The notes beneath the pieces were generated by a model. The model saw nothing but the letters and a program-made list of their open reading frames with translations, was not told the DNA's origin and did no database searches. From Naegleria gruberi (lineage: Eukaryota): 64,000 nucleotides of DNA. The stretch lies in the NCBI GenBank assembly GCA_000004985.1, contig GG738868.1; one strand, 5' to 3'. Position numbers and translations under genes: made by a program. This document shows, in pieces, positions 1 to 23,243 of the stretch (position 1 is its first letter; each line of letters opens with the position of its first letter).

Positions 1-1048
1 CCAATACTAATTCTCTATCCCTTTTGAATGATTCATTGGCATAGTCAAGTGCGTAGCCATTTTGTTTAACTGCCTTCAAGACAATATCTCTGGTTTGTTC
101 AAAGTTTGAAAAGGCGAAGTTTGTAAATAGCCTTAAAGCTTCTCCATTAGATTCAATTGCTTCCAAAATAAAGTCTGTGTTATATTTAAGCGAATCATCA
201 ATAAAATCAAGAGCTTTTACATTTTTCTTTGTGGCCTCCAACACAATTTCTCTATTTTTAAAAAGTGAATGGTTTGTGTTTTTGAAAGGTAATCCATTTC
301 GAATAGCTTGGATAACAATTTCTCTATCAATATTCATGGAAATATCAGATAGTTTAACACCATCTTGCTTGATAGCATTCAATTCAATTTCCTTTTTCAA
401 TTTTTCAGCAATGGTAATATAGGCCAGGCCGTTTTGTTTAACAGCTTCCAATATAAACTGTCTATCACTTCTAAATGAACTATCTGCAAGTCTAAGTGCA
501 CAGCCATTTTGTTTAATAGCTTCCCTAACAATTTCAATGTCTTGTTTGAATGATGCATCTATATACGGCAATGCTTCACCATTTAATTTCACAGCTTCCA
601 ATACGAATGCTCTGTCTTTCTTAAATGACGAATCAGCATGACTGAATGCACTTCCCTTTTGTTTAATTGCCATCAGTACTATATTTCTATCGTTTTTAAA
701 TGAATTGTCAGCAAACTGTAATGCAGTGCCATCCTGCTTAATGGCTGCCAACACAATTCTTCTGTCTCTTTTAAGAGTTTCGTCTGCAATCTCTAGTATT
801 TGGCCATAGTTTTGTTTGATGGCTTCCAAAACTAAACCTCTATCTTTCCACAGTGATGGATCGGCATAAGATAATGTGTGACCATGTTTTTTAACTGACG
901 CCATCACAATTTCTCGATTCGCCTTTAATGAAGAATGTGCATATAAAAGTGAGAGCGAACAATCTTGTTTAATACCTTGTAAAATGTATTTTTTATCTTT
1001 TTGCAACTTTTCATCGTTCATAAGTGATGAAACATCATACTCTTTCAT
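1..1048 (-). CDS. DUF4116-repeat protein, partial. The start codon is at 1048 and the C-terminus runs off the window edge. It carries at least 9 tandem repeats of about 36 aa (…AVKQNG.AL.YAD.SFK.DREIVL.A…).
   Basis: The minus-strand frame is open from ATG 1046-1048 to position 1 with no stop. Translation gives repeated 'IVLEAVKQNGYALDYANESFKRDRELVL'-type units matching the DUF4116 repeat consensus. The track ORF 177..422(+) is its antisense shadow. Confidence 0.6.
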   Translation of the reverse strand, partial: MKEYDVSSLMNDEKLQKDKKYILQGIKQDCSLSLLYAHSSLKANREIVMASVKKHGHTLSYADPSLWKDRGLVLEAIKQNYGQILEIADETLKRDRRIVLAAIKQDGTALQFADNSFKNDRNIVLMAIKQKGSAFSHADSSFKKDRAFVLEAVKLNGEALPYIDASFKQDIEIVREAIKQNGCALRLADSSFRSDRQFILEAVKQNGLAYITIAEKLKKEIELNAIKQDGVKLSDISMNIDREIVIQAIRNGLPFKNTNHSLFKNREIVLEATKKNVKALDFIDDSLKYNTDFILEAIESNGEALRLFTNFAFSNFEQTRDIVLKAVKQNGYALDYANESFKRDRELVL

Positions 1049-1147
1049 TCTTCTTATTTTTTGATTTTAATCATCACGTTTGACACAATAATTTTCATTC
1101 GAACGAGAAAACAGATTTCTTTGGAGAATTAAACAAAACAATAAAAA

Positions 1148-1912
1148 ATGGGACAAAATCAAGGCTCACCATCATCTGGACAATTAATAAATATTCCATC
1201 GTTATCAAAAGATTTATTAGATAAATTGGCTCATCAGACACATTATGATAAGAAGGAAATTAAACAATTACATACTCAATTCTATTCCGAAGTACCTAAT
1301 GGGGCTATACCTAAAGAGGTTGGTTTTTTAGATCATCAATTTTTAATTTTATTGTGATAGGATTTTTGTCAATTAACGGAATTGATGGGAATTAAAGATC
1401 CATTCATAACTTCATTGGTATTTAATGCTTTTGATAGAAATTGTGATTCGAGTATTTCATTTGATGAGTTTTTGATATCGATGAGTATAATGACAAGGTA
1501 GGTTTGATTAGTTTCGAATAATTGATTAAAATTATTCGAAAAGAGGAAATGCTGATGAAAAATTGGAATTTGCTTTCAAGTTATATGATCTCAATCATGA
1601 TGGATATATTTTGAAAAGTGAAATGACAAGAATTGTAACAGCTCTTTATCAAATGTTGGGTGATTTACTGACATTGCAAGGTGATTTTGGTGGGTTTTAT
1701 TGGAATTTATTTGATTAATTTTATTATGATTTCAGATAAACCTTCAAAACTTGTAGATAAAATCTTTGAGGAAATGGACACAAATAGAGATGGAAAATTG
1801 GTATGTATTTTGGAATACGAATGTTAACTAATTTACAAAATAGACTTTTGAGGAATATAAAATTGGAGCAAAGAAATGCCCAGAAATTGTAAATGGACTA
1901 GCACTTTTCTAA
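1148..1912 (+). CDS. NCS1: Neuronal calcium sensor (NCS-1/frequenin/recoverin family) EF-hand protein, N-myristoylated (MGQNQGS…). Five exons: join(1148..1318,1361..1497,1544..1680,1736..1800,1844..1912).
   Basis: The spliced translation 'MGQNQGSPSSGQLI…AIPKE|DFCQLTELMGIKDPFITSLVFNAFDRNCDSSISFDEFLISMSIMTR|GNADEKLEFAFKLYDLNHDGYILKSEMTRIVTALYQMLGDLLTLQ|DKPSKLVDKIFEEMDTNRDGKL|TFEEYKIGAKKCPEIVNGLALF*' aligns colinearly with NCS-1 (…FKLYDLDNDGYITRNEM…DKNADGKLTLQEF…). All four introns (42-55 nt) have GT..AG ends and the correct phase. Confidence 0.75.
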
Positions 1913-3665: not shown

Positions 3666-5104
3666 ATGGGTAACGCACCGAGTGGAGGACAACAACCTTT
3701 CCAACTTCCTGGCGCTGGAAAAAAGCAGAATAAGGACGATAAGAAAAAGAAGAAGGAAAAGAAAAAGTTTGAACAACCAGTACCAACCCGTATTGGCAGA
3801 AAAAAGAGGAAAAAGGGTCCACAAATTGCTGAAAAGCTTCCAGAAGTTACACCAGTCTCAAAATGTAAACTTAGAATACTACGATTGGAAAGAGTTAAAG
3901 ACTATCTTACAATGGAAAAAGAATTTGTTACTAATCAAACAAAACTTTTGACTGCCCAAGAAAAGAGCAAGGATATGGAAGAGGAACGTAACATGGTCGA
4001 TGAATTAAGAGGATCACCAATGGCTGTAGGAACTCTTGAAGAAATTATTGATGATAACCATGCTATTGTTTCTAGCAGTGTTGGTCCTGAATTCTATGTT
4101 TCAATCCTTTCAATTGTTGATAAGGATCAATTGGAACCTGGTTGTAGTATTTTAATGCACAATAGATATTTGGCTGTTGTTGGTATTCTTCAAGATGAAG
4201 CCGATCCAATGGTCTCTGTCATGAAAGTCGATAAGGCTCCTCTCGAATCATATTCACAAATTGGTGGTTTGGAAGATCAAATCCAAGAAATCAAGGAAGC
4301 TGTCGAATTCCCATTAACACATCCAGAACTTTATGAAGATATTGGTATTAAACCACCAAAAGGTGTTATACTTTATGGTGAACCAGGTACAGGAAAGGTA
4401 TGTAGTAATTATTTATACAACAATGTATTAATCATCATCATTATACTTATATTATTGAATATGTATAATCATATTAGACACTTCTTGCCAAAGCTGTAGC
4501 CCATCACACCAGTGCTACTTTCTTGCGTGTTGTTGGTTCCGAACTCATTCAAAAGTATCTTGGTGAAGGTCCAAAACTTGTTCGTGAATTGTTTAGAGTT
4601 GCTGAAGAATTGGCTCCAAGTATTGTATTTATAGACGAAATTGATGCTATTGGTACAAAGAGATTTGATTCAACATCAGGAGGTGAACGTGAAATTCAAA
4701 GAACTATGCTTGAATTGCTTAACCAATTGGACGGTTTCGATTCCAGGGGTGACGTTAAGGTTATCATGGCCACTAACAGAATTGATTCTCTTGATACTGC
4801 TTTGATTAGACCTGGTAGAATTGATCGTAAGATTAAATTCCCATTCCCAGATGTTAAGACAAAGAGAAAGATCTTTGAAATTCACACTCGTAAGATGAGT
4901 AAGGCTACTGATGTAAATTTGGATGAATTTATTTCCTCAAAGGATGAATTGTCTGGTGCTGACATTAAAGCTATTTGTACAGAAGCAGGTTTGTTGGCTC
5001 TCAGAGAACGTAGACTCCAAGTTACTCAAACAGACTTTACAAAGGCCAAGGAAAAGGTTTTGTACAAAAAGCAACAAGGTATTCCAGAAGGTCTTTACAT
5101 TTAA
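3666..5104 (+). CDS. RPT2: 26S proteasome regulatory ATPase subunit Rpt2 (PSMC1/S4), N-myristoylated. join(3666..4397,4478..5104).
   Basis: 'MGNAPSGG…[15 protein letters not shown]…[24 protein letters not shown]…GEPGTGK|[44 protein letters not shown]…[35 protein letters not shown]…' is near-identical to PSMC1 along its length. One 80-nt GTATGT..TAG intron splits the Walker A codon block in phase 0. Confidence 0.92.
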
Positions 5105-12985: not shown

Positions 12986-14527
12986 TTAAGGTAATTTCAT
13001 AAGTCTGACAGTGTGGGCCATATGATTGACAGTTTCAGCACCAATTACTAAGACTACCAGATCGCCAGGTTGGGCAAATGACTTTTCAACCAAATATTTA
13101 CAACAAAGCTCTTCGACACTGTGAGGACCTGTGATGTAATCCGTGTTATGGATTAGTACAGGAGTAATTCCCCAACCTAATGTGAGACGATTGAATGTAA
13201 ATTCTTGATCTGTCAATGCAATGATTGGAACATTAGGTCTGTATTGAGAAATACTGACAGCTGTTTTCCCTGAATTAGTGATACAACAAATTAATTTAAC
13301 ACCAGAGTGCTTATTTGCAATAGTAGAAGCAGCCATGCAGCTAGCATTTTCAATAGAGTCAGTGGCATTACTGTTGAAATCATTCTCATGAGAGTCCAAT
13401 CTACCAAACTTGTGAGAATTGATGTCAGCTGTTCTCACAATTAAGTGCATAGTTTTGACAGAAAGAACTGGATATTTTCCCATAGCTGATTCATTACTCA
13501 ACATGACTACATCTGTTCCATCAAAACATGCATTGGAAACATCTGTAACTTCAGCTCTGGTTGGAATTTTACTTTCAACCATAGATTGCAGCATTTGGGT
13601 GGCTGTAATATCAATTTTACCTGCTTTGGAGGATTTTTCAATTAATTCCTTTTGGAAAATTGGTAATTCATGGAAATTAGTCTCAATCATCAAATCACCT
13701 CTATGTGAAATAATTATCAGAAAAAAAATCATTCTACAAACTTACCTTGCAACCATCAATCCATCAGCTTCCTTAAGAATGGCATCAATATTTCTAATAG
13801 CTTCAATTCTCTCAATTTTTGCAATAATTGGAATAGTTTTACCAGCAAATTTCATCATTAGATTCTTGGCATCAATAATATCTTGAGCAAATCTGACAAA
13901 ACTCAAACAAACATAATTAATTTCACCACATTTCATACCAAATTCCAAATCAGCAATATCTTTTTCTGTCAATGCAGGGGCTGAAATAGTTGCCCCTTCA
14001 TCAACCATATTAATTCCCTTTCTTTGAGATAACATTCCTCCTGTTACAACTTTACAAACCATTTCAGTTTCTTCTTGATTTTTAGAAACAACGTGCACTT
14101 CCAAATAACCATCATCAATCATTAATTTAGAGCCAGGTCTACAATCCCTAACCAAATTTGGATAAGAAGTAGAAACTTTTCTAGGTCTAGTTTCATTATC
14201 TTCACCACTCGCAATAACACTCTTATCTGTAGTGATCACAATTTCCTCTCCCTCAACAATCATGAAAGATTTACCCAATTTACCAATTCTAATCTTTGGA
14301 CCTTGAAGATCTTGAACAATTGCAAATGGAATTCCACCCAATTCCTTCTGTGCCTCTCTAATCTTTTGAATCGTCTCCAAATGAACGTTGTGTTCTCCAT
14401 GACTAAAGTTTAATCTAGCTGCGTTCATTCCTTCCATCATCATTTGCATTATTATAGATTTATCGGAAGAGCTTGGGCCGATCGTGCACAATATTTTGGT
14501 TCTTCTATCAGATGCTGTTCCGTTCAT
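12986..14527 (-). CDS. PYK: Pyruvate kinase. complement(join(12986..13700,13746..14527)).
   Basis: '…RTKILCTIGPSS…MNAARLNFSHG…GPKIR…MVA|RGDLMIE…' plus the C-terminal 'MLSNESAMGKYP…' are pyruvate kinase hallmarks. One 45-nt GTAAGT..CATAG intron splits the MVARGDLGIE motif in phase 2. Confidence 0.92.
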
Positions 14528-14781: not shown

Positions 14782-16476
14782 ATGAAGGAAGATATTACCA
14801 GAACGCATCTTGTAACGAATTATGGTAATAGAGATTTCTCGCATAAGCATCGATCCAATATTTACAAGCAATATCGTCAGAGTTTTAAAAATTCACCTCA
14901 GACAAATGAACAATCTGGCCATGATGACTCATTCGTCCAGAGTCGATTAGCAACACTGCTACAACAATATTTGTTTAAAACTAATCTCAGTTATCAGGTA
15001 GAAACAATTAGTGGAGAAGAAATGAGACTCTTAGAACAGTACAATGAATTGGCTTCGTATAAGAGACAATTCGATCCAGAAGGTTCACCTCCAGAACTTC
15101 CTGAATTCTTAAATGAACCATTCTATTACATTATTGATTTGAGAAATCTCATGTCAAGACCCAATTTTAAAACTCTCTTTCCAGAGTTTGCAAGAACCGC
15201 CTTAACTGAAGAATTTCGACAGGATTTGGAAATATTTTGGAGGGCGTGTTGTAAAGTATTGAATAGAAACTTTGCATTCATAACCCATTTAGATTTGGGA
15301 GAGAATGATTTGGAAAATCTAAAGCCATTCAGAGAATTATCTCAACTCAAACGTTTGACATGTCTTTCATTAAGAAATAACAAGATTTTATTCATTCAAG
15401 AATTGAGATACTTCTCTGGATTGGTTATTAATGAATTGGATATGTCTGGTAACCCATTCATTAACACTGGTGGTTATGTGAGGGAAGATGTCATTTACAT
15501 GTTGTCATTGTTCCCATTTTTAGAAATAGTGGATCAAAATTTCATTCCAGACGATGTCAAAGAAGAGATTGTTATTCACTCATCTTCCAATGTGTCTTTG
15601 TTACCAGATATTAATATTCAAAGTACATTTGAAAGTCAAGAAGAAAGGGCCTGGATTGAATGGTTTCTCAATAATTACTTTACAACATTCGATACTAACA
15701 GAGCTGAAGTAATGTCATGTTATCAACATAATGCAATCTTCTCGTTTTCATACGATATCAATGCCTATGCTGATTTACCTGAGACATTCGAATCTAAATT
15801 AAGTTTAAGATATCTGAAGCCATTCTCCAGAAATTTACTTTACATTCTCAGAGATTCTACTGCAAGAGAAACTCTTCTGAACGAATCTCTCACTCTTCGA
15901 ATTGGAAAAGAAGCAATTTATGAACTTCTTATTGCTATGCCAAACACAATTCACAATTTAACAACTAATTTAATTGATGTATCGTCATATGACGTTATCA
16001 AAATAGTAGATGAACTCAATCCATATCAATCCCCAATTACTAAACATATTATGGTCAATTATCATGGACAATGCCAACAAATGGACGAAAAAGGTATTAA
16101 ATATCCAAGGTCAATTGATTGTCAATTGATTCTCACACCTAATTTGAATCCACTTACTCAACAAACTCTTCGTTACCTCATCCAAAATCAACAATATCAA
16201 ATTAGACCATATGTTTCACTCAGTTTGACCAAGATCTTCAAAGGACATGAAATAGAAAGACCTTCAACTCCTTATTCTTTCGTTGATACTGGATCAAGAA
16301 CTGAATTAACAGCGCTACACGAAAGCATAATAGTTCAATTCACATCAATTACTGGATTAAGAAGAGAATATGCACTTCCATGTTTGGAATATTCAAATTG
16401 GAATATTAGTAACGCAATTAACACTTTTAACACGGAAAAGATGAATGGAAATATTCCACTCTATTGTTTTCAATAA
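14782..16476 (+). CDS. NXF: Nuclear mRNA export factor (NXF1/TAP/Mex67 family) with an LRR, an NTF2-like domain and a C-terminal TAP-C/UBA-like domain.
   Basis: 564-aa ORF. An LRR segment (…ITHLDLGENDLENLKPFRELSQLKRLTCLSLRNN…LDMSGNPF…) is followed by an NTF2-like region (…WIEWFLNNYFTTFDTNRAEVMSCYQHNAIFSF…) and a C-terminal UBA-like tail (…LTALHESIIVQFTSITGLRREYALPCLEYSNWNISNAINTF…), as in NXF1. Confidence 0.6.
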   Translation: MKEDITRTHLVTNYGNRDFSHKHRSNIYKQYRQSFKNSPQTNEQSGHDDSFVQSRLATLLQQYLFKTNLSYQVETISGEEMRLLEQYNELASYKRQFDPEGSPPELPEFLNEPFYYIIDLRNLMSRPNFKTLFPEFARTALTEEFRQDLEIFWRACCKVLNRNFAFITHLDLGENDLENLKPFRELSQLKRLTCLSLRNNKILFIQELRYFSGLVINELDMSGNPFINTGGYVREDVIYMLSLFPFLEIVDQNFIPDDVKEEIVIHSSSNVSLLPDINIQSTFESQEERAWIEWFLNNYFTTFDTNRAEVMSCYQHNAIFSFSYDINAYADLPETFESKLSLRYLKPFSRNLLYILRDSTARETLLNESLTLRIGKEAIYELLIAMPNTIHNLTTNLIDVSSYDVIKIVDELNPYQSPITKHIMVNYHGQCQQMDEKGIKYPRSIDCQLILTPNLNPLTQQTLRYLIQNQQYQIRPYVSLSLTKIFKGHEIERPSTPYSFVDTGSRTELTALHESIIVQFTSITGLRREYALPCLEYSNWNISNAINTFNTEKMNGNIPLYCFQ

Positions 16477-16539
16477 ATTGTGATTTAAATTATTGTAAAT
16501 TATTTGAAAAATCATTATGAAAATTTCAAATAACCAAAT

Positions 16540-17628
16540 ATGAACCTTCAAAATTGGTTAACAAACTTGGATTTGCAGCATTTCATTAATTTTAAATCAA
16601 ATTTTAAAAAAATGAGAAAACAATTAATAAGCAAACTCTCACAAATTGTCTCCCGTGATTTGGGTAATCGTGGCATTGGAAAATTAATAGAAAAATACAC
16701 AAATAACTCTTCCGATTCTACTATCAAACAATCTGAACTGTATTGTGGCAATGAACATTCTATCGGAAAGATTGTTGATGAATTTATAATGCCAAAGGTT
16801 GATTGCCAAAAAGATGTTATTTCTAACAAGTACATTTCGATAATTACTGGATTTTCTGTGCCACCAAATGGATTTTCGGAGAATGATGGACCTTTGGGTG
16901 CAATTTGGATTGGATTGGGAATTGTGAAATATTCCAATTTGAATGTTTTATATTTTGTGGATGAGAATCAATACAATGCAATTTCCAAGTTTGCCAATAT
17001 GGTTTTTGAATCAATGAAAGATAGAATTAAAATTGTTAAAATTACAAAGAGTGATTTGGATAATGTAAAACAATCATCAAGTATTTCTGAATGTATTGAA
17101 AATATTGATTCAATGATTTCTATTGAAAGAGTTGGAAAAACCAAAGATTCTAATTATTATAGTATGAGAGGAATTGATATTTCAAGTTACAATTTGTCAA
17201 TGGATAGATTAATTGATCATGTCAGAGAAATCAAACCAGAAACTCAACTAATTTCTATTGGGGATGGAGGTAATGAAATAGGAATGGGAAATGTAATTGA
17301 TGGAGTTGCACAATTCATCCCAAACGGTGATAAAATAGCATGTGCTGTCAAATGCAATCAGTTATTAATTTGTGGCGTCAGTAATTGGGGTGGTTACTTA
17401 CTCTACCTATTATTTGAACATTGTAATTCATCGCTCACTCTTCAAACAATGCAAGGTATTAATATTGAACTCGATAGAAGCTATCTAGAATATATGAATA
17501 ATGAATGTAAAATGGTAGATGGTGTTAGAAATCAGCCAACTATGAGTGTTGATGGTCTTGAGTATGATCTAGTTCATGCCAACATTCTAAAGGAATTAAA
17601 TGAATGTTTCCAATCATCTAACCAATAA
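16540..17628 (+). CDS. Conserved hypothetical protein (362 aa) with a glycine-rich 'IGDGGNEIGMG' motif. It is possibly of the DUF4392/D-glutamate-cyclase-like family.
   Basis: Clean ORF with an ATG at 16540 and an A-rich upstream context. The family call rests only on the GDGGNE.GMG motif from memory. Confidence 0.45.
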   Translation: MNLQNWLTNLDLQHFINFKSNFKKMRKQLISKLSQIVSRDLGNRGIGKLIEKYTNNSSDSTIKQSELYCGNEHSIGKIVDEFIMPKVDCQKDVISNKYISIITGFSVPPNGFSENDGPLGAIWIGLGIVKYSNLNVLYFVDENQYNAISKFANMVFESMKDRIKIVKITKSDLDNVKQSSSISECIENIDSMISIERVGKTKDSNYYSMRGIDISSYNLSMDRLIDHVREIKPETQLISIGDGGNEIGMGNVIDGVAQFIPNGDKIACAVKCNQLLICGVSNWGGYLLYLLFEHCNSSLTLQTMQGINIELDRSYLEYMNNECKMVDGVRNQPTMSVDGLEYDLVHANILKELNECFQSSNQ

Positions 17629-18388
17629 AAATTGGTGTACCCATTCCATAATTATTAATTTCAAAGATTATATTCAAAATCAACCTTGGAATTAAGGATG
17701 AAAATGAAAACTCTGAAAACGATAGACATCTGAATAGATTCTTTCTCTAAATTCTAAAAATCTCAATATTTTGACAATAAATATATCAAATCTAATCAAA
17801 TCATCATAACGATTTGAAAAACTCATTCAACAGATTGAACGACTACAATCCATTTCCTCAAAAGCTCACTCGTCAAAACTTGTATACAACCACATTTAGG
17901 ACACCACCTAAATTGGTGCCAACTGAGAGACAGTACCCACTAACTCCAACCATTCAAAACAACAACAAATTATCGATATTATTAGACTATTTGATTGCAA
18001 TATTAAATACTTACAAAACACATGTTTGGTTGGTATAATTAAAATGTTCCCGATTATTTTTACTTGCTTCCTTCTTAGGTGGTGAGAGAGGACACATCAT
18101 CAACAAAAGCCGCGCAAAAGAATGCCTGGTAGTAGCTATTATTAATTTTTTGCAACTCAAAAAAAAACCTTGCGCTTCTTTCCGCAATTACAAACACAAA
18201 AGAATCTTCGGGTGCTTAGCCTGCAAAGCGAATCACAACGACGACAACAACTTTTTTGATTGTTTTTATTTCCCTTGTTATAACAACAACCTGACATCTT
18301 TTTGGAACTTTTTGTTCGCAAAAGCAAATTATCATCCATAGTATTTTTTAATACGTAGTAGTAGTACAATAATTGAAATCACTTTGAA

Positions 18389-19089
18389 AATGCAATTGTT
18401 TAGAGATTTTAGTTTTTTGAATTCTCCGCATACAAATAATAAGAAATCTACTCAGGTTTCTTGTTACACTAAAGACACTTGTGGTGTTAAGGAGAACTTG
18501 TACTTCTTCAGTCATGATGACGGTAGAGGGCCTATTCGCTATTTTTGATGTGGCTCTTTTTACCTTGAAGGAAATGGATTTCCACTATCGTCCTCTTGCT
18601 ATGGACGACTCTAACCTCGACTCTCTCCAATATTCTCTCACTCAACAACTCGACCAATCTATGAATTTCCTTTCCAATACTACATTCAAAAATACCCAAA
18701 AACTTTCACCAAAATCTGTAATGTTTGTTTATACTATTGGTGATGAATTACCAGATTATGACGATGCTTCATCAGAATCATCATTGGAATCTGACTCAAG
18801 TGATGCTAATATTAGAACTGGATTTACTGGTATTATCGACTTTGAAAAGAACGAAATGACAATTTATCCACCTTCTAATTCTTCATGCATGAATAAGGAT
18901 TCTGTTATTAATCTTATGGACATGGCTGATTGCCTCGGTATTTCAACTTTGTACATGTGTATTGAAAAGAACCATCAAGAAATTAGAGAGTTTTCTCGTG
19001 GTTTCATTTATGCTGGTTTCGAATTGATACAACCAAAGATTAAGCAATTGTCTTCAACTGAATGGGTTGTTTTTGGTGCTGAATTGTAA
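18389..19089 (+). CDS. OAZ: Ornithine decarboxylase antizyme (OAZ). The antizyme domain is encoded from 18547 (or ATG 18513) to 19089. A candidate short ORF1 runs join(18389..18410,18475..18548) and ends at a +1 frameshift site, UUU-UGA-U (18543..18549).
   Basis: The C-terminal '…LMDMADCLGISTLYMCIEKNHQEIREFSRGFIYAGFELIQP' matches the antizyme signature (…LLEFAEE.L…HVF.CFHKNR.DRA.LLRTFSFLGFEIV.P). The zero frame is open for 43 codons up to TTT-TGA-T, then the +1 frame (GAT GTG…) carries the homology for 180 codons. Confidence 0.7.
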
Positions 19090-19502
19090 AAAGATTTTTT
19101 CGGAATTGGAAAGATTTTTGTAAATATTTAATTGGTCAGAGAGAAGGAAACGAATTCAATCTACACGATATCTTATAGAACTTGCAAACCAAAACTTTGG
19201 ATGACGGATTGAGCATTGTAAACTTGAATAACGTCGGTTGTTTGGGTTTTGTTCTTTGTTCACATAATCTTGATAGTGGAGTTGTTGGAATGCAATCTTT
19301 CTATTTTAGAGGATGACTGAAGATTGTCTTTGAACCCTTTTCTCATTTTAATAAAGAGAGAGTTCGAATAATACTTTTACTGTTTCTTTAATTTGAGTCT
19401 ATGACAAACAGAGAAGGTAGATCTGAAGATGTTTTCAAGGTTGTAATTTGAAATCAATAATTTTATTCCAAAAAGATTCACATAATGAGAACAGGCGATA
19501 GT

Positions 19503-22500
19503 CTAATCAGAGTCTGTACTTGCATCTCCATAATCATCTTCCTCTTCAACCTTCATAGTTTCTTCTTCCTCAGGATCACTATCACCATTGTCATCAATAT
19601 TGTCTTCCTCCTCTTCTTCATTCTCCTCATCACTGTCAAAATCAACTCTTTTTTTAGCCTTATAATTAATCAGAGAAGGATTCATTGAAGAGGTATATCC
19701 AAAACAGAATACTTGAAAACCACCAACTCCATTCAACAACATTTGAGTTTTTTCACAAATTTCCAATTCACACCATCCTCTTTCAGCTGCCTCCTTCTTT
19801 GTTGGAGTTGGATTTTTCTTTCCTGGATTGGCACTAACTGTGAGTAAGGTTTCCTTTCTCAATTGATTTTCTGGTTCTTCCCAAAAGTCATCTGAGCTAA
19901 TTGGTAAAATACCTTCCATAGAAGGTAAGAAATAAGTATTCACAGCAGAAGTCAAATAGGAAATAGTATGGGTTGGTCTCTTGAGATTATGAATCTTGTT
20001 TTTCAAACTATCATTCACTTGATAGTTCCACATAGCTACTCTTCCAATATGTTTCTTATTGTCAAATATGGATTCCAACTGTTCAACCAAAAATCTTGCA
20101 ATTTGAATGTCAGGATTGTTGAGTTGAATTTCTTTCAATAATTCAATAAATTGTTGAGGATTGTGAATTATTAATTTAAGAGTTGATTCTGAGGATACTT
20201 CATTAGTAATTTCTGTTATTCTACTATTATACTTTTTTCTTGATGGACCTTTGATCGATTTGATATATTCATCCAAAATGTCCAACAAGTGAAATCGTCC
20301 ATTTCCCAATTCTTCAATGATTTGATCAGTCAAATTGTATTTTAACTTGAGTATTTTCAAGCAATTAGCTGCAAACTCCGGTTCCAGTAGAATTTCTTTC
20401 AACTTTGCAAATCTAACCCTAGAAACGTTTGGATTAAATAGCTCAGTATGTAAAACTTTTTCCATAAATTGTAAACTTCTGAGCATTGATGTTTCATGTG
20501 AAACAAACAATTTTTGTTGTCTACTATATTCATAAAATTCTAAAATGTCATCTTGAATAATATGAATGCATTCAAGTTTAAGAAATTGACCAATTGCCAA
20601 AATTGAGGAATGAACAATGCCAGGTCCAAGAGGCATATTAGATTCCAAAACAATAAAATTGTAGTCATCCACTCTATTTCCATTAGATATAATCCATTTC
20701 TTATATCTATTGATATATTTTGATTCTGTTACAATGGTTACACAATTTGGAATTGAATCTGAATGCAGCTTCTTCACGAAATTAGAATAGAGATAAGGTT
20801 TCCAAAATTTTCCTCTTGGTCTTGATTTGATAAATAGAGGTTTCAATCCATCACTAGTGAGCGTTGAAATCTGTTTCAGTTTAGTCAAAAAGCTTTCTTC
20901 ATTATAGGAAATTTCTAGAATTTCATCATCTCTATTAAACTTGACCAATATTTCGTTATCATTCGAATAGTTTCTATCCATTACTTTAACAGGAATTGTG
21001 TATCTATCTCTCTTCTCGAATTTGAATTTCAACAAGGCATCGTTATGTGAGCAAAATGATTTTTGTTTTTCTTGCTTTTTTGCTTTCTTCTTTTCCTTCT
21101 TCTTCTTTTCCTTCTTTTCAGGGACAGGAGGTCTTAAATCAGTTACACTTTCAGATTCTTTATCTGGAAGATCTAATTTACATTCTTCCAATCTTTGTGG
21201 GAATGGATATTTGTCTTCAATGATTACCTCACCAATTGATGATTTCTTATTTTGGTACTTTGTCAATAGTTGTTTAACATTTTTGTGTAAACCAAAACTC
21301 AATTCTTCCCATGATTGGACAGTTTCCTCAAATTGAACACTAAAATCATGTTCAAAATCTTCCACTGCTTGCACAATATCTAGAATTATCTTTTCCTTTG
21401 ATTTGTCCTTTTCCTCAAAATTTGGATTCAAAGAATAGCACAAAGACTGGACCCACTCTAATGGAATGATAGTATCACTTCTCAGGTATGATTCTTGCAA
21501 AATAGATGTTAATTTGGCTTGGAATCTTTTAGTAAGAGTGTTGAAACAACTTAAAAAGCTCTCTAATTTTAAAAAAAACCCACTGTTAAAATACCCAAAG
21601 CATTGCTTCCACCTCTTGATTCTCTGTGGTACTTTCAATTGGTTTAGTTTCTTTTGTTTTGTTTTTTTCAATTCAGGTACAATTTCTTTCCTTTGAAAAC
21701 CTAATACAATAGGATTGGTGTAATAGGATGAAAACTTCTTTACGAAAGAATCTATTGTCTTTTCTTTTAAGGCATCCACATCAGGTATATTTTCTTTCAA
21801 TCCATCAATAACACTTTGCAATTTCTTCTGAATTTTCTGGATACATGACTTCAATTCTTTCACGAACTTTAATGGAAACTTTTGTACTTTCTTAATAGTT
21901 GTATTAGACAGTACAACAATAGCCATGTCTCTTAATTGACTAATATTGTTTGATATAATCTTTTTTCTATTGTTTTCAATAATTGATTGTAAATTGGAAA
22001 CAAAGTGATCTCTCATTTCAACGTTGTTAGGTGGTGGAAAACAAACTAAATCAAAATTATCATATAATCCCTTTACAAAATCATACTTGTTTTCCATATC
22101 AATTTCATTGGTATTGATATTATTGGCTTCTAATTCCAAGTCGAAAGGGACATCATCTAGCTCACAATCGAAATGAAAAGCAAGTTGCTTTCCATATGAT
22201 TCTTTCATGGGTTTGAAAACGTTTTTTGTCATAACCTCATTCTTGTAGCTCTCCTCATTCATTACCTTATTATTAGCTAAGATTGCAATGTAAGGTTGAT
22301 GGGTTTGTTGTGGTTGATGGATACCATAATCCCACACCTTTTGTACAATACCATCATCAAGAATGATCCTTTCATTTTCAATACCACACAATAACAAGCA
22401 GGTGTCATATAAACTTTCTCTTATCAAATGCTTGTAGGATACATTTTCATGGACATTTACTGGATCAGTAGTTTGCTTTTCATCATATCCAGGCATATCT

Positions 22501-23243
22501 CTGAGAATTATTTTGCTCCTTTGAAGGAACTTGGAAGGGATTTTCAAGATTAACTTCTTAATATGGACTTTCTTAAAGTTGGTGTCAGCATCAAACTCTA
22601 AAATCTTGTTACGTGCTTTAGTGGCCAGAAATTCATAAAGTTCCTCTTCAGAATTTCCATTGTCAATAATATAATTTGATTGATTGTCAATTTCACAATC
22701 TTTCAAAGTATCAGTAGCAAGTTGTTCAACTTTCCTTGCACACAACTCTTGTTGTGAACAATACTGAACAGTCAAACTGTAAGTTGGTGAATACTCAACA
22801 TCAACAACTGTACGTGTCAAACCCTTTCCAAACTGAACAGCAGAAGGAAGAGGAGCATTAGTCATTTTGAAATCAGACAACAATTGATCAATGATGAAGG
22901 ATTTACCATATCCTGGCTTACAAAACAGGGTAACCACAACTTTGCCCCGAAAATCCTTGATGATTCCCTCCATAGACTCTAAATGTTCAGAACACATTGT
23001 CCTAATGGATCCCTTCTTATTGGAACCGTTTAAATGTTCCTTGTAGAATGTTTTAACCTTATCAAAATCCTCAGTTTCTGTCTTCATTTGTTTATCCTCC
23101 TGCTGTTCATTGCCATTCTCTGGTGATGGGTCCATTTTGATTTTCTTGGGTGCTTGTTCTGTAGATGATGAAGCAGTTGCAGCAGCAGCAGCAGTAGCAG
23201 TAGTAGCACTCGGAGAGTGAGTAATCTTTCTCTTTCGAAGCAT
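19503..23243 (-). CDS. Large (1246 aa) TRAFAC-type GTPase of a septin/AIG1(GIMAP)-like 'DMPG' family, with a poly-Ala/Thr N-terminus and an acidic C-terminal tail.
   Basis: True ATG at 23241-23243. G1 is 'LFCKPGYGKSFIIDQLLS', a G2-like segment is 'GLTRTVVDVE', and G3 is 'ILRDMPGYDEK' (hhhD.PG, as in septin DTPGFG or GIMAP DTPGLFD). The C-terminus '…DSDEENEEEEEDNIDDNGDSDPEEEETMKVEEEDDYGD' is strongly acidic. Confidence 0.6.
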   Translation of the reverse strand: MLRKRKITHSPSATTATAAAAATASSSTEQAPKKIKMDPSPENGNEQQEDKQMKTETEDFDKVKTFYKEHLNGSNKKGSIRTMCSEHLESMEGIIKDFRGKVVVTLFCKPGYGKSFIIDQLLSDFKMTNAPLPSAVQFGKGLTRTVVDVEYSPTYSLTVQYCSQQELCARKVEQLATDTLKDCEIDNQSNYIIDNGNSEEELYEFLATKARNKILEFDADTNFKKVHIKKLILKIPSKFLQRSKIILRDMPGYDEKQTTDPVNVHENVSYKHLIRESLYDTCLLLCGIENERIILDDGIVQKVWDYGIHQPQQTHQPYIAILANNKVMNEESYKNEVMTKNVFKPMKESYGKQLAFHFDCELDDVPFDLELEANNINTNEIDMENKYDFVKGLYDNFDLVCFPPPNNVEMRDHFVSNLQSIIENNRKKIISNNISQLRDMAIVVLSNTTIKKVQKFPLKFVKELKSCIQKIQKKLQSVIDGLKENIPDVDALKEKTIDSFVKKFSSYYTNPIVLGFQRKEIVPELKKTKQKKLNQLKVPQRIKRWKQCFGYFNSGFFLKLESFLSCFNTLTKRFQAKLTSILQESYLRSDTIIPLEWVQSLCYSLNPNFEEKDKSKEKIILDIVQAVEDFEHDFSVQFEETVQSWEELSFGLHKNVKQLLTKYQNKKSSIGEVIIEDKYPFPQRLEECKLDLPDKESESVTDLRPPVPEKKEKKKKEKKKAKKQEKQKSFCSHNDALLKFKFEKRDRYTIPVKVMDRNYSNDNEILVKFNRDDEILEISYNEESFLTKLKQISTLTSDGLKPLFIKSRPRGKFWKPYLYSNFVKKLHSDSIPNCVTIVTESKYINRYKKWIISNGNRVDDYNFIVLESNMPLGPGIVHSSILAIGQFLKLECIHIIQDDILEFYEYSRQQKLFVSHETSMLRSLQFMEKVLHTELFNPNVSRVRFAKLKEILLEPEFAANCLKILKLKYNLTDQIIEELGNGRFHLLDILDEYIKSIKGPSRKKYNSRITEITNEVSSESTLKLIIHNPQQFIELLKEIQLNNPDIQIARFLVEQLESIFDNKKHIGRVAMWNYQVNDSLKNKIHNLKRPTHTISYLTSAVNTYFLPSMEGILPISSDDFWEEPENQLRKETLLTVSANPGKKNPTPTKKEAAERGWCELEICEKTQMLLNGVGGFQVFCFGYTSSMNPSLINYKAKKRVDFDSDEENEEEEEDNIDDNGDSDPEEEETMKVEEEDDYGDASTDSD

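What the first reader, a model, noticed from the sequence alone, without database searches (positions are those of the whole stretch)
18389..19089. Ornithine decarboxylase antizyme gene with a canonical +1 ribosomal-frameshift context (UUU-UGA-U)
Position 18481..19089 encodes an unmistakable antizyme C-terminal domain. Immediately upstream, the zero frame is open for 43 codons with no stop and ends exactly at TTT TGA T (18543..18549). Continuing in the +1 frame (GAT GTG GCT…) runs without a stop for 180 codons into the homology. That is the ORF2 length seen in known antizymes. This is the UUU/UCC-UGA-N architecture that antizyme genes use for polyamine-sensing +1 frameshifting. The zero-frame ORF1 has no in-frame ATG of its own. 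It can be supplied by ATG 18389 if a 64-nt GT..AG intron (18411..18474) is removed, giving ORF1 MQLFRDFNTCGVKENLYFFSHDDGRGPIRYF. Alternatively, the +1 frame has its own ATGs at 18513 and 18516, so frameshift-independent initiation cannot be excluded. In that case ATG 18389 would only head a 16-codon uORF. An unusually GC-rich 220-bp stretch (18130..18350) lies in the 5' leader.
Basis: partly seen in the sequence, partly recalled or inferred. Interest (0 to 1): 0.8.

Follow-up and report, generated by a model that had tools for sequence, protein, structure and literature searches.

The report
Naegleria antizyme gene needing +1 frameshift
This is the ornithine decarboxylase antizyme gene of the amoeba Naegleria gruberi, which can only be made whole if the ribosome slips one base forward at a UUU-UGA site; that is the classic polyamine-sensing trick, known in other eukaryotes but missing from every public Naegleria gene model.

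Summary
The core of the finding holds. Window 18390..19089 (+) is the Naegleria gruberi antizyme gene: Pfam ODC_AZ scores above its cut-off, and the best PDB sequence and fold matches are human antizyme 1. It has the classic two-ORF layout. ORF1 is 18390..18548 (52 codons, ending UAU-UUU-UGA-U). ORF2 is in the +1 frame, 18547..19089.

The ATG is at 18390, not 18389, and it is in frame with the UGA, so no intron is needed. The 'GC-rich' leader has average GC.

Twelve distinct sequences share the layout: the window, eight other Naegleria sequences, Willaertia and two of three distant environmental relatives share UUU-UGA-U. The third uses AUU-UGA-C. ORF1 is under purifying selection (dN/dS 0.05-0.24). 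The selected frame switches at the UGA. Two relatives have no +1-frame ATG upstream of the UGA. The leader has no upstream ATG for 183-291 nt.

No vertebrate-type 3' pseudoknot is present, and canonical 'module A' is degenerate. This is a new, unannotated member of a known kind.

One extra observation: a conserved, covariation-supported ~205-nt rod-like hairpin (19140..19343) lies in the probable 3' UTR. It carries two GGAUGAC loops and matches no Rfam family.

The parts
18125..18389 (+). ATG-free leader upstream of the ORF1 start. It includes short conserved motifs, for example AACAACCTGACAT at about 18287..18299.
   Evidence: There is no ATG for 265 nt, where 5.4 are expected (P about 0.005). 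The same is true in relatives: 183-291 nt, or back to the contig start. Conserved motifs are seen in alignment A11. Whether this is 5' UTR or promoter is not known.
18390..18548 (+). ORF1 (zero frame): ATG 18390, 52 sense codons, UGA stop at 18546..18548.
   Evidence: Direct reading. The start context TTGAAAATGCA is identical in six of the seven Naegleria sequences compared (L008 lacks one A, TTTGAAATGCA). dN/dS is 0.05-0.24 and all indels are in phase. It is conserved in Willaertia and in environmental relatives.
18492..18545 (+). Conserved ORF1 C-terminal peptide ENLYFFSHDDGRGPIRYF (codons -18 to -1). It is a candidate nascent-peptide element, or a functional N-terminal element of the protein.
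   Evidence: Invariant or nearly so across Naegleria, with synonymous changes at His, Asp and Gly codons. Recognisable in Willaertia (RESLYFFSPGNKGPRYF) and in L012, L013 and L014 (REQ[IV][CS]F[FY]...G[WP]..[FI]). The resemblance to the mushroom stimulator is not significant.
18543..18549 (+). Frameshift site UUU-UGA-U. P-site Phe codon 18543..18545, A-site stop 18546..18548. After a +1 slip the P-site tRNA re-pairs with UUU (18544..18546) and the A site reads GAU (18547..18549).
   Evidence: Sequence. UUU-UGA-UGU is identical in all Naegleria sequences, Willaertia, L013 and L014; L012 has AUU-UGA-C. UUU-UGA and AUU-UGA are listed antizyme shift sites (PMC1874602).
18519..18555 (+). Block of suppressed synonymous variation around the shift site (codons -8 to +3).
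   Evidence: Within Naegleria, 7 of 9 amino-acid-invariant degenerate codons are also nucleotide-invariant, against 17.7% elsewhere in the gene (binomial P = 1.4e-4). The signal disappears when Willaertia is added.
18547..19089 (+). ORF2 (+1 frame): 180 sense codons plus TAA 19087..19089. The full product is join(18390..18545, 18547..19089), 232 aa.
   Evidence: The product is 100% identical over ORF2 to the N. gruberi 'predicted protein' P0001. After the UGA, selection acts on the +1 frame (7 synonymous / 7 non-synonymous) and not on the zero frame (1/19).
18868..19086 (+). Antizyme core domain (Pfam ODC_AZ match, residues 160-232), containing the alpha1-helix ODC-contact residues.
   Evidence: Pfam 32.3 bits against a 24.2 cut-off. 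The only PDB sequence hits are antizyme 1 chains. The top Foldseek hits are 4zgy_B, 5bwa_B and 4zgz_B. K153, D154, E161, E164 and K178 equivalents are kept.
19140..19343 (+). Conserved rod-like RNA hairpin in the probable antizyme 3' UTR. It has two invariant GGAUGAC boxes in internal loops: an inner box at 19199..19205 opposite UUGAUAGUG, and an outer box at 19311..19317 opposite ACGAUAUC.
   Evidence: RNAalifold gives -48.1 kcal/mol on the + strand (covariation term -5.9, 71 pairs) against -15.1 on the - strand. 93% of cells are paired, against 39-51% with slid partners. 19 pairs change on both sides, against 3-6 slid. 0 of 500 shuffles reach the observed values. The window MFE is -55.5 kcal/mol, z = -3.3. 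It is single-copy in the window. Willaertia has the same anatomy. It matches no Rfam family.
19350..19355 (+). AATAAA, the probable poly(A) signal, immediately 3' of the hairpin.
   Evidence: In each Naegleria sequence it is the only AATAAA within the 3' sequence scanned after the stop (420 nt in the window, N. fowleri and N. lovaniensis; 250-267 nt, to the contig end, in L008 and L005), and it always lies just after the hairpin. Its use as a poly(A) signal is inferred.

Best explanation
Window 18390..19089 (+) is the single-exon ornithine decarboxylase antizyme gene of Naegleria gruberi. It is expressed by programmed +1 ribosomal frameshifting.

Mechanism, step by step:
1. Ribosomes start at AUG 18390. 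It is probably the first AUG on the mRNA, and it has A at -3.
2. They translate the 52-codon ORF1 and arrive with UUU (Phe) in the P site and the UGA stop in the A site.
3. A fraction of ribosomes do not terminate. Instead peptidyl-tRNA-Phe slips one base 3', from UUU to the overlapping UUU of U-UUU-GA.
4. GAU is then read in the A site, and translation continues for 180 codons in the +1 frame. This gives a 232-residue antizyme.
5. By analogy with every studied antizyme, polyamines raise the slip frequency. The product binds ODC monomers and sends them to the proteasome, which closes a negative feedback loop.

Shown here by sequence and comparative analysis: the two-ORF anatomy, antizyme homology and fold, translation of ORF1, the switch of the selected frame at the UGA, and the lack of any conserved ORF2 start codon.

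Inferred from knowledge of the family: polyamine dependence, ODC binding and degradation, and the slippage geometry.

The local stimulators are probably the conserved ORF1 C-terminal peptide and/or the nucleotides immediately around the site. They are not a 3' pseudoknot.
For: HOMOLOGY
- Pfam ODC_AZ scores above its gathering cut-off.
- The only PDB sequence hits at E<=1 are antizyme 1 chains.
- The Foldseek top hits are human AZ1 chains from the ODC and AZIN complexes: E 1e-4 to 2e-3, target TM-score 0.59-0.67.
- 5 of the 7 alignable ODC-contact residues named in PMC6995573 are conserved or conservatively replaced.

ARCHITECTURE
- ORF1 ATG 18390 is in frame with UGA 18546. The +1 frame has a stop at 18418..18420, so ORF2 cannot be extended upstream to any ATG other than 18514/18517.

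COMPARATIVE EVIDENCE
- The same ORF1 / UUU-UGA-U / +1 ORF2 layout is found in N. fowleri, N. lovaniensis, six further Naegleria-like contigs, Willaertia magna and two of the three distant environmental relatives; the third (L012) has AUU-UGA-C. ORF1 length varies from 45 to 65 codons (longer in L012, whose start is not defined), always in phase.
- ORF1 dN/dS is 0.05-0.24, comparable with ORF2 at 0.11-0.34. Variable columns peak at zero-frame position 3 before the UGA and at +1-frame position 3 after it.
- In the 10-codon overlap the zero frame shows 4 synonymous and 2 non-synonymous codon-type changes, against 1 and 5 in the +1 frame. After the UGA the +1 frame shows 7 and 7, against 1 and 19 in the zero frame.
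- L009 and Willaertia have no +1-frame ATG upstream of the UGA.
- 'DV' is the first +1-frame dipeptide in all twelve distinct sequences.
- The leader is free of ATG for 183-291 nt in every species where it could be measured.

LITERATURE
- UUU-UGA is an established antizyme shift site in protists, mushrooms and nematodes (PMC1874602).
Against: - There are no transcript, ribosome-profiling or proteomic data, so the trans-frame product is inferred.
- In N. gruberi itself a +1-frame AUG pair (18514, 18517) lies 29-32 nt upstream of the UGA, with a purine at -3. Some frameshift-independent synthesis by leaky scanning cannot be excluded.
- No conserved 3' RNA structure was found next to the site: consensus -6.5 kcal/mol, covariation term +0.25.
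- Canonical module A (G-UGG-YGY) is matched at only 2-3 of 7 positions in the window.
- I could not verify that Naegleria has an ODC gene.
- The structure model has low overall confidence: mean pLDDT 54, core 63-79.
Confidence: 0.88

Rival explanations
1. ORF2 is translated on its own from the +1-frame AUG at 18514/18517, reached by leaky scanning or from a shorter transcript. ORF1 is a separate, conserved-peptide regulatory upstream ORF that overlaps the main start. The analogy is the polyamine-responsive upstream ORFs of AdoMetDC and AZIN1 mRNAs.
For: The +1-frame ATGs exist in the window and in most Naegleria sequences. All public gene models use them. ORF1 encodes a conserved peptide, as regulatory uORFs do.
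Against: - The +1-frame ATG is absent in L009 and Willaertia. It arises only where zero-frame His is CAU followed by G.
- The overlap evolves as zero-frame coding sequence.
- +1-frame protein conservation begins at the first codon after the UGA (DV...), which is upstream of the first available Met in Willaertia.
- ORF1 always ends at a known antizyme shift site, UUU-UGA or AUU-UGA.
- ORF1's AUG is the first AUG and has a good context.
Confidence: 0.08
2. An intron joins ORF1 to ORF2 in frame, so no frameshift is needed. This could be the reader's 18411..18474 or another GT..AG pair spanning the UGA.
For: Twenty GT..AG pairs could arithmetically remove the UGA and keep an open frame. Naegleria genes do contain short introns: the pyruvate kinase gene in this window has a 45-nt GTAAGT...CATAG intron.
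Against: - None of the 20 candidates has a GTAAGT-type donor.
- The shortest (18486..18570) would delete the most conserved coding block on both sides of the UGA.
- The GTTAAG donor of that shortest candidate is absent in N. fowleri.
- Codon-phase selection continues right up to the UGA and resumes right after it.
Confidence: 0.01
3. The frame break is an assembly or sequencing error, or the gene is a decaying pseudogene.
For: Single-base frame breaks in homopolymer runs (here five Ts, preceded by an A) are a common sequencing artefact.
Against: The identical break is present in independent assemblies of at least five species in two genera, and in unrelated metagenome and SRA contigs. Both ORFs are under purifying selection.
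Confidence: 0.01

Closest known systems
Antizyme +1 frameshifting at UUU-UGA in Agaricomycete fungi (Coprinopsis cinerea; Yordanova et al. 2015, PMC4505036) and other UUU-UGA lineages (C. elegans-clade nematodes, several protists; Ivanov & Atkins 2007, PMC1874602)
   Same: The two-ORF layout, the UUU-UGA shift site, and an ORF1 of about 50-65 codons. Both have a conserved peptide encoded just 5' of the site, with synonymous variation in its codons. In N. gruberi codons -15 to -5 (YFFSHDDGRGP) line up with the mushroom stimulator YYYSTTFSGGP at Y-15, S-12, G-6 and P-5.
   Different: - The peptide resemblance is not statistically significant (shuffle p about 0.05-0.9), and the register shifts by 1-2 codons among heterolobosean species.
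- Mushroom module A (G-UGG-CGU) is not kept in the window (U-CGC-UAU).
- The mushroom 3' stem-loop structure has no counterpart.
- None of this has been tested experimentally in Naegleria.
Jakobid antizymes (Seculamonas ecuadoriensis, Jakoba libera), the previously described Discoba examples (PMC1874602)
   Same: Same eukaryotic supergroup. A +1 frameshift is required. Peptide-level conservation lies just 3' of the shift site.
   Different: The jakobid 3' peptide is VIP(D/E)LGFR, starting five codons after the site. Heterolobosea have DVA(L/M)F..K..DF.YRP, starting at the first codon. I could not obtain the jakobid sequences for a direct comparison.
Mammalian antizyme 1 (OAZ1)
   Same: The C-terminal ODC-binding fold, and key alpha1-helix contact residues. 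Both have a UGA-U stop context. ORF1 ends G-x-G-P-R-(W)-C-x-stop in both: human GPGPRWCS, N. fowleri GRGPRCF. At the nucleotide level GGG-CCU-CGG-UG is shared with L011.
   Different: - The shift codon is UCC, not UUU.
- Mammals have a 3' pseudoknot, which is absent here.
- Mammals have 5' modules A-C. The resemblance at the ORF1 end is only marginally above shuffles (p 0.004-0.09 in eight of the nine sequences, 0.50 for L012).
- Overall sequence identity is about 18-20%.
Bacterial release factor 2 (prfB) autoregulatory +1 frameshift at CUU-UGA
   Same: A regulatory +1 slip with a shifty P-site codon next to an in-frame UGA, in which slow termination competes with slippage.
   Different: The protein is unrelated. 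RF2 uses a Shine-Dalgarno-like 5' stimulator that pairs with 16S rRNA. It senses RF2 rather than polyamines.
Kink-turn-containing RNAs (box C/D RNAs, SECIS elements), considered only for the 3' hairpin
   Same: Internal loops with an AUGA-containing strand (GGAUGAC) opposite a YGA-containing strand, and, like SECIS, a location in a 3' UTR downstream of a recoded UGA.
   Different: There is no significant Rfam match to any SECIS or snoRNA family, even in a 311-nt search at E<=10. The order of the boxes is not C-D'-C'-D. The zero frame after the UGA is not conserved, so Sec read-through is not supported.

Membership tests
Ornithine decarboxylase antizyme (Pfam PF02100 ODC_AZ) | Sequence match to the family profile above the curated threshold | tested here: met
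   32.3 bits against a gathering score of 24.2, E 9.9e-8, profile positions 34-114 of 114. All relatives carry PF02100. The only PDB sequence hits at E<=1 are antizyme 1 chains.
Ornithine decarboxylase antizyme (Pfam PF02100 ODC_AZ) | Antizyme C-terminal fold (mixed beta-sheet with two helices, GNAT-like) | tested here: met
   The AlphaFold2 model's core (residues about 100-191) has pLDDT 63-79. The Foldseek PDB top hits are 4zgy_B (E 1.1e-4), 5bwa_B and 4zgz_B, followed by GNAT acetyltransferases. Caveat: mean pLDDT is only 54.
Ornithine decarboxylase antizyme (Pfam PF02100 ODC_AZ) | Conservation of the residues that contact ODC (human AZ1 E142, K153, D154, E161, E164, E165, H171, K178; PMC6995573) | tested here: met
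   From the alignment: K153=K, D154=D/E, E161->D, E164=D/E and K178=K are conserved or conservatively replaced. E165 and H171 are not. E142 lies outside the alignment. So 5 of the 7 alignable residues are kept.
Ornithine decarboxylase antizyme (Pfam PF02100 ODC_AZ) | Binds ODC, inhibits it and targets it to the proteasome; the organism has an ODC | not testable with these tools
   This is biochemical.
Antizyme-type programmed +1 ribosomal frameshift | Short ORF1 and long ORF2 partly overlapping, with ORF2 in the +1 frame and no conserved start codon of its own | tested here: met
   ORF1 is 52 codons and ORF2 is 180 codons. +1-frame ATGs upstream of the UGA are absent in L009 and Willaertia and vary in position elsewhere.
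Antizyme-type programmed +1 ribosomal frameshift | [quoted passage not shown] | tested here: met
   UUU-UGA-U at 18543..18549. The list of codons is in PMC1874602, Table 1. L012 uses AUU-UGA.
Antizyme-type programmed +1 ribosomal frameshift | The arrangement is conserved among orthologues, with coding selection switching from frame 0 to frame +1 at the stop | tested here: met
   Twelve distinct sequences share it. For dN/dS and frame-specific substitution counts.
Antizyme-type programmed +1 ribosomal frameshift | Frameshift efficiency rises with polyamine concentration, and a trans-frame protein is detected | not testable with these tools
   This needs reporter assays, ribosome profiling or mass spectrometry.
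Antizyme 5' 'module A' (G-UGG-YGY immediately 5' of the shift codon; human G-UGG-UGC, C. cinerea G-UGG-CGU) | Nucleotide match in the 7 positions 5' of the shift codon | tested here: not met
   The window has U-CGC-UAU (2-3 of 7). N. fowleri has U-CGC-UGU (3 of 7). L011 has U-CGG-UGC (5 of 7). The distant relatives L012 and L013 have G-UGG-UAU (5 of 7). So the block is degenerate in the window, although synonymous sites there are constrained within Naegleria.
Vertebrate/invertebrate antizyme 3' frameshift-stimulating pseudoknot (the Rfam antizyme FSE family) | A conserved pseudoknot or stem-loop starting a few nucleotides 3' of the UGA | tested here: not met
   There is no Rfam hit at E<=1 in 17600..19600. 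RNAalifold on the 108 nt from the site gives -6.5 kcal/mol with a covariation term of +0.25. The window-only stem has z = -2.0 and its register is not conserved.
Agaricomycete nascent-peptide frameshift stimulator (YYYSTTFSGGP, codons -15 to -5) | Significant similarity of the ORF1 C-terminal peptide in the same register | tested here: inconclusive
   There are four identities and two aromatic matches in register in N. gruberi. But shuffle p is 0.05-0.07 there and 0.05-0.9 in other relatives, and the register drifts by 1-2 codons. Peptide-level conservation with synonymous variation is present.
SECIS element / box C/D snoRNA (for the 3' hairpin only) | Match to the Rfam covariance models; canonical order and spacing of the motifs | tested here: not met
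   No SECIS hit. The best snoRNA hit is SNORD101 at 14.3 bits against a gathering score of 47, E 5.6.

The most novel reading that the evidence does not exclude
The covariation-supported ~205-nt rod-like hairpin with two kink-turn-like GGA(A)UGAC loops is part of the antizyme 3' UTR. It lies 51 nt after the antizyme stop codon and is kept in Naegleria and Willaertia. On this reading it is a lineage-specific cis-regulator of antizyme expression, acting on mRNA stability or translation, or even on decoding at the upstream UGA. That would be the first structured 3' UTR element tied to antizyme control. Together with the conserved ORF1 peptide, it would replace the missing 3' pseudoknot and the degenerate module A.
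Probability: 0.2. Interest if true: 0.6.

Novelty: new member of a known kind. Interest (0 to 1): 0.4.

Why it matters
Antizyme frameshifting is the textbook example of a cellular gene that uses recoding as a metabolite sensor, so finding it again is not surprising in itself. The value here is practical and comparative.

1. Every public gene model for this gene is truncated or mis-started because the frameshift is not annotated. This covers N. gruberi, N. fowleri, N. lovaniensis and Willaertia magna. The real protein has 45-65 extra N-terminal residues.

2. It extends well-documented antizyme recoding to Heterolobosea, with enough sequences to define lineage-specific signals: a conserved ORF1 peptide ([SG]CYT[KR]...RE[NQS]x[YCS]F[FY]...G[PW]..[FI]-UGA), a degenerate module A and no 3' pseudoknot. 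That bears on how polyamine sensing is built into the ribosome-mRNA-nascent chain complex.

3. N. fowleri is a lethal human pathogen, and polyamine metabolism is a drug target in other Discoba, so a correct model of its ODC regulator is useful.

4. The unexpected structured element in the 3' UTR is a concrete new object to test.

Tried and rejected
Rejected. ATG 18390 is in frame, the ends at the stated coordinates are not GT..AG, and the segment encodes conserved residues.
- ANY OTHER INTRON SPANNING THE UGA. 20 arithmetic GT..AG candidates were found. None has a GTAAGT-like donor, and all would delete conserved coding sequence.
- GC-RICH LEADER. Rejected.
- 3' PSEUDOKNOT OR STEM-LOOP NEXT TO THE SITE. 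No conserved structure and no Rfam hit.
- HOMOLOGY OF THE ORF1 END TO THE MUSHROOM NASCENT-PEPTIDE STIMULATOR. It was attractive by eye but is not significant against shuffles.
- HOMOLOGY OF THE ORF1 END TO THE HUMAN ORF1 END / MODULE A. Only marginal, and canonical module A is not met in the window.
- RNA-LEVEL CONSTRAINT AROUND THE SITE. Significant within Naegleria but not once Willaertia is added. So the deep constraint looks peptide-level, plus the UUU-UGA-UGU core.
- COVARIANCE MODEL OF THE 3' HAIRPIN. It did not detect Willaertia, L013 or L014, even with filters off. The Willaertia equivalence therefore rests on the duplicated exact 8-mer and on independently folded anatomy. For L013 and L014 it is only suggestive.
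- SECIS OR BOX C/D IDENTITY OF THE HAIRPIN. Not supported.
- HAIRPIN AS A DISPERSED INVERTED-REPEAT ELEMENT. Rejected, because it is single-copy in the window.
- LITERATURE ON NAEGLERIA ANTIZYME OR ODC. Nothing relevant was found. The supplement of the 2007 catalogue is not held, so I cannot exclude that Naegleria was among its ~10 protist entries.
- ARE THE SHORT LOGAN CONTIGS TRANSCRIPTS? This could not be decided: they have adapter remnants but no poly(A).
Full report
WHAT IS IN THE SEQUENCE

The region was read directly and its ORFs were listed. From 18547 the +1 frame (GAT GTG GCT...) runs 180 sense codons to TAA 19087..19089. Several other statements are off.

- The ATG is at 18390, not 18389. 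It is in the same frame as TGA 18546..18548. So ORF1 is a plain, uninterrupted 52-codon ORF: MQLFRDFSFLNSPHTNNKKSTQVSCYTKDTCGVKENLYFFSHDDGRGPIRYF*.
- The zero frame is open for 68 codons (from 18342), not 43.
- The +1-frame ATGs are at 18514 and 18517.
- The proposed intron 18411..18474 has ends AGTT...AAAG.
- 18130..18350 has GC 0.326 against 0.329 for the window, the 43rd percentile of same-size windows.

IDENTITY

The conceptual frameshift product is join(18390..18545, 18547..19089), 232 aa.

- It matches Pfam ODC_AZ above the gathering score: 32.3 against 24.2 bits.
- The nearest database protein is the Naegleria gruberi 'predicted protein' P0001, 100% identical over ORF2. So the window is N. 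gruberi.
- A profile of six full-length products hits only antizyme 1 chains in the PDB (4zgz_B, 4zgy_B, 1zo0_A, 5bwa_B; E 0.035-0.05). The match lies over the conserved core KDS..L...AE....ICIEKNH......RGF.YAGFE.VQP.
- An AlphaFold2 model of ORF2 has mean pLDDT 54, with 63-79 in the C-terminal core. Its best PDB matches are human antizyme 1 in the ODC and AZIN complexes (E 1.1e-4 to 2.4e-3, target TM-score 0.59-0.67), followed by GNAT acetyltransferases.
- Mutagenesis identifies eight human AZ1 residues as essential for ODC binding and inhibition (PMC6995573). Seven are alignable. K153, D154, E161, E164 and K178 are conserved or conservatively replaced. E165 and H171 are not.

Membership in the antizyme family is therefore well supported.

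IS THE FRAMESHIFT REAL? COMPARATIVE EVIDENCE

All public models of this gene are ORF2-only. This covers N. gruberi, N. fowleri, N. lovaniensis and Willaertia magna. I fetched the DNA encoding each relative and read the upstream region. Every one has an ORF1 with its own ATG, in the -1 frame relative to ORF2, ending at a UGA. The site is UUU-UGA-UGU in all Naegleria sequences, Willaertia, L013 and L014. In L012 it is AUU-UGA-C. Both are documented antizyme shift sites (PMC1874602).

ORF1 length varies: 51, 52, 53, 56, 63, 64 and 65 codons in Naegleria and 45 in Willaertia. Despite many indels it always stays in phase.

- ORF1 is under purifying selection as strong as ORF2. dN/dS is 0.05-0.24 against 0.11-0.34. 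Variable columns by codon position are 14/17/33.
- The selected frame switches at the UGA. In the ten gap-free codons of the overlap, the zero frame shows 4 synonymous and 2 non-synonymous codon-type changes, and the +1 frame shows 1 and 5. In the twelve codons after the UGA, the +1 frame shows 7 and 7, and the zero frame shows 1 and 19, including a stop in N. lovaniensis.
- The +1-frame ATGs that the public models use come from zero-frame CAU-GAU-GA(C) (His-Asp-Asp). Where His is CAC (L009), or the motif differs (Willaertia), there is no +1-frame ATG upstream of the UGA.
- The first +1-frame residues after the site are 'DV' in all twelve sequences.
- The leader upstream of the ORF1 ATG has no ATG for 265 nt in the window, where 5.4 are expected (P about 0.005). 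In relatives the figure is 183-291 nt, or back to the contig start. The context TTGAAAATGCA is identical in six of the seven Naegleria sequences compared; L008 lacks one A. So scanning ribosomes should start at ORF1.

Taken together, this is the standard comparative signature of a utilised +1 frameshift.

RIVALS

- Independent initiation, with ORF1 acting as a conserved-peptide uORF. The points above disfavour it. It cannot be wholly excluded for N. gruberi, where the +1 AUGs exist (confidence about 0.08).
- Splicing. Twenty GT..AG pairs could arithmetically bridge the frames. None has a donor like the genuine intron found in this window's pyruvate kinase gene (GTAAGT...CATAG, 45 nt). Every one would remove sequence that is conserved as coding.
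- Sequencing error or pseudogene. Excluded by recurrence in independent assemblies and by selection on both ORFs.

STIMULATORY SIGNALS

3' of the site there is no conserved structure. RNAalifold on seven sequences gives -6.5 kcal/mol with a covariation term of +0.25. The window's own stem has z = -2.0 and is not in a conserved register. Rfam reports no antizyme element.

5' of the site, canonical module A is matched at only 2-3 of 7 positions in the window (U-CGC-UAU). Module A is G-UGG-UGC in the human cassette (PMC1616946) and G-UGG-CGU in C. cinerea (PMC4505036). The distant relatives L012 and L013 have G-UGG-UAU.

Within Naegleria, synonymous sites from codon -8 to +3 are unusually invariant: 7 of 9 against 17.7% elsewhere, P = 1.4e-4. 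Willaertia varies at those sites while keeping the amino acids G-P-R-Y-F | D-V. So the deep constraint is on the peptide and on the UUU-UGA-UGU core.

The ORF1 C-terminal peptide is conserved across all relatives: RE[NQS]-[LIV]-[YCS]-F-[FY]...G-[PW]-..-[FI]. An upstream [SG]CYT[KR] motif is also conserved in all but L014.

This peptide resembles the experimentally validated mushroom nascent-peptide stimulator. YYYSTTFSGGP at codons -15 to -5 lines up with YFFSHDDGRGP. A shuffle test does not support more than chance (p 0.05-0.9). The resemblance of the ORF1 end to human GPGPRWCS is marginal (p 0.004-0.09 in eight of the nine sequences, 0.50 for L012).

I therefore propose, but cannot show, that the peptide and/or the immediate nucleotide context stimulates the shift. 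The peptide could equally serve the mature protein's N-terminal function.

MECHANISM

With UAU-UUU-UGA-U, the P-site tRNA-Phe can re-pair perfectly after a +1 slip, because the overlapping codon is again UUU. This places GAU in the A site. Slow termination at UGA competes with slippage. Polyamine dependence and ODC targeting are inferred from the family, not tested.

COMPARISON WITH WHAT IS KNOWN, AND NOVELTY

Antizyme +1 frameshifting is established in animals, fungi and about ten protists. These include UUU-UGA sites and jakobids, which are Discoba like Naegleria (PMC1874602). I found no paper linking antizyme frameshifting to Naegleria. The supplement of the 2007 catalogue is not available to me, so prior listing cannot be excluded. 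This is a new, unannotated member of a known kind, with lineage-specific signals. It is not a new mechanism.

BEYOND THE FINDING: A CONSERVED 3' HAIRPIN

While checking contig ends, I saw that sequence well past the stop codon is conserved, even between species whose synonymous sites are near saturation.

- Window 19140..19343 (+) folds into one long rod.
- RNAalifold on five Naegleria sequences gives -48.1 kcal/mol (covariation term -5.9, 71 pairs). The reverse strand gives -15.1 kcal/mol and -0.3.
- 93% of cells are paired, against 39-51% with slid partners. 19 pairs change on both sides, against 3-6 slid. 0 of 500 shuffles reach the observed values.
- The window MFE is -55.5 kcal/mol, z = -3.3.
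- Two invariant GGAUGAC boxes sit in internal loops, opposite UUGAUAGUG and ACGAUAUC.
- AATAAA follows the hairpin directly in every Naegleria species. The downstream gene differs between N. gruberi and N. fowleri. So the element travels with antizyme and is probably its 3' UTR.
- It is single-copy in the window.

A covariance model built from Naegleria does not detect Willaertia or the distant relatives. However, Willaertia carries the exact 8-mer GGAATGAC twice. These are its only two occurrences in 6.6 kb (P about 3e-6), and they sit in an independently folded 230-nt rod with the same loop anatomy.

The loops look kink-turn-like, but no SECIS or snoRNA family matches. The function is unknown. 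This is the most novel thing in the neighbourhood and deserves an experiment.

VERDICT

The core interpretation is right, but the proposed intron, the 'no ATG' statement and the GC-rich leader are wrong. Confidence that this gene is decoded by +1 frameshifting at 18543..18549 is about 0.88. Interest is moderate (0.4): the biology is expected for specialists, but the annotation needs correcting, the set of lineage-specific signals is useful, and the 3' UTR element is new.

Noticed in passing
window 19140..19343 (+); also L001 about 3722..3955, L004 about 3690..3925, L005 about 1617..1839, L008 about 1008..1225, L010 about 3700..3940: A conserved ~205-nt rod-like RNA hairpin starts 51 nt after the antizyme stop codon. 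It has two invariant GGAUGAC (Willaertia: GGAAUGAC) internal-loop boxes and is followed directly by AATAAA. Covariation and strand asymmetry are strong. It is single-copy in the window and matches no Rfam family. Its function is unknown.
   Followed up: yes
window 13701..13745 (- strand), within pyruvate kinase 12986..14527 (-): Pyruvate kinase (Pfam PK + PK_C) is split into two same-frame ORFs by a 45-nt spliceosomal intron (GTAAGT...CATAG) that carries an in-frame TAA. Removing it restores the canonical ...MVARGDL... motif. It served as a local reference for genuine Naegleria splice signals.
   Followed up: partly
public gene models P0001, P0005, P0006, P0009 (N. gruberi, N. lovaniensis, N. 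fowleri, Willaertia magna): All deposited antizyme models are ORF2-only. The Naegleria models start at a +1-frame ATG, which gives a spurious N-terminus M(M)T(T)(V/A)EGL.A.F. The Willaertia model starts at a Met downstream of the shift site. None annotates ORF1 or the frameshift.
   Followed up: yes
L012 1..527 (JGI metagenome 3300038658): This distant environmental antizyme uses AUU-UGA-C instead of UUU-UGA-U. Its zero frame is open for more than 170 codons back to the contig start, so its ORF1 may be unusually long. The organism is unknown and the contig is very AT-rich (GC 0.27).
   Followed up: partly
L009 about 600..690 (ENA metagenome contig k141_667699): This Naegleria-like antizyme loses homology after ...IEKNHVELR and ends early (GTMQRQYFDKL*). 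It lacks the conserved EF.RGFIYAGF..QP core. It may be a chimeric assembly, an unrecognised intron or a pseudogene. Its ORF1 and shift site are intact.
   Followed up: partly
window 18175..18300 (+); alignment A11: Short motifs in the ATG-free leader are conserved across Naegleria species, about 90-200 nt upstream of the ORF1 ATG: TCTTCGGGTGC...CCTGC, ACAACGACGA and AACAACCTGACAT. They could be promoter/TSS or 5' UTR elements.
   Followed up: no
window 14782..17628 (+), and 19503..23243 (-): The gene order NXF-type mRNA export factor, then D-glutamate cyclase-like protein, then antizyme is shared with N. fowleri and N. lovaniensis. The downstream neighbour differs: here it is a 1246-aa ORF with no Pfam match, and there it is a TPT transporter followed by NST1.
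   Followed up: partly
L008 1..34 and L014 about 940..960: Logan contigs carry sequencing-adapter remnants at their ends: a Nextera-like GTCTCGTGGGCTCGGAG..TGTATAAGAGACAG, and Illumina AGATCGGAAGAGCGTCGTG. Contig termini in that collection should not be read as biological ends.
   Followed up: no
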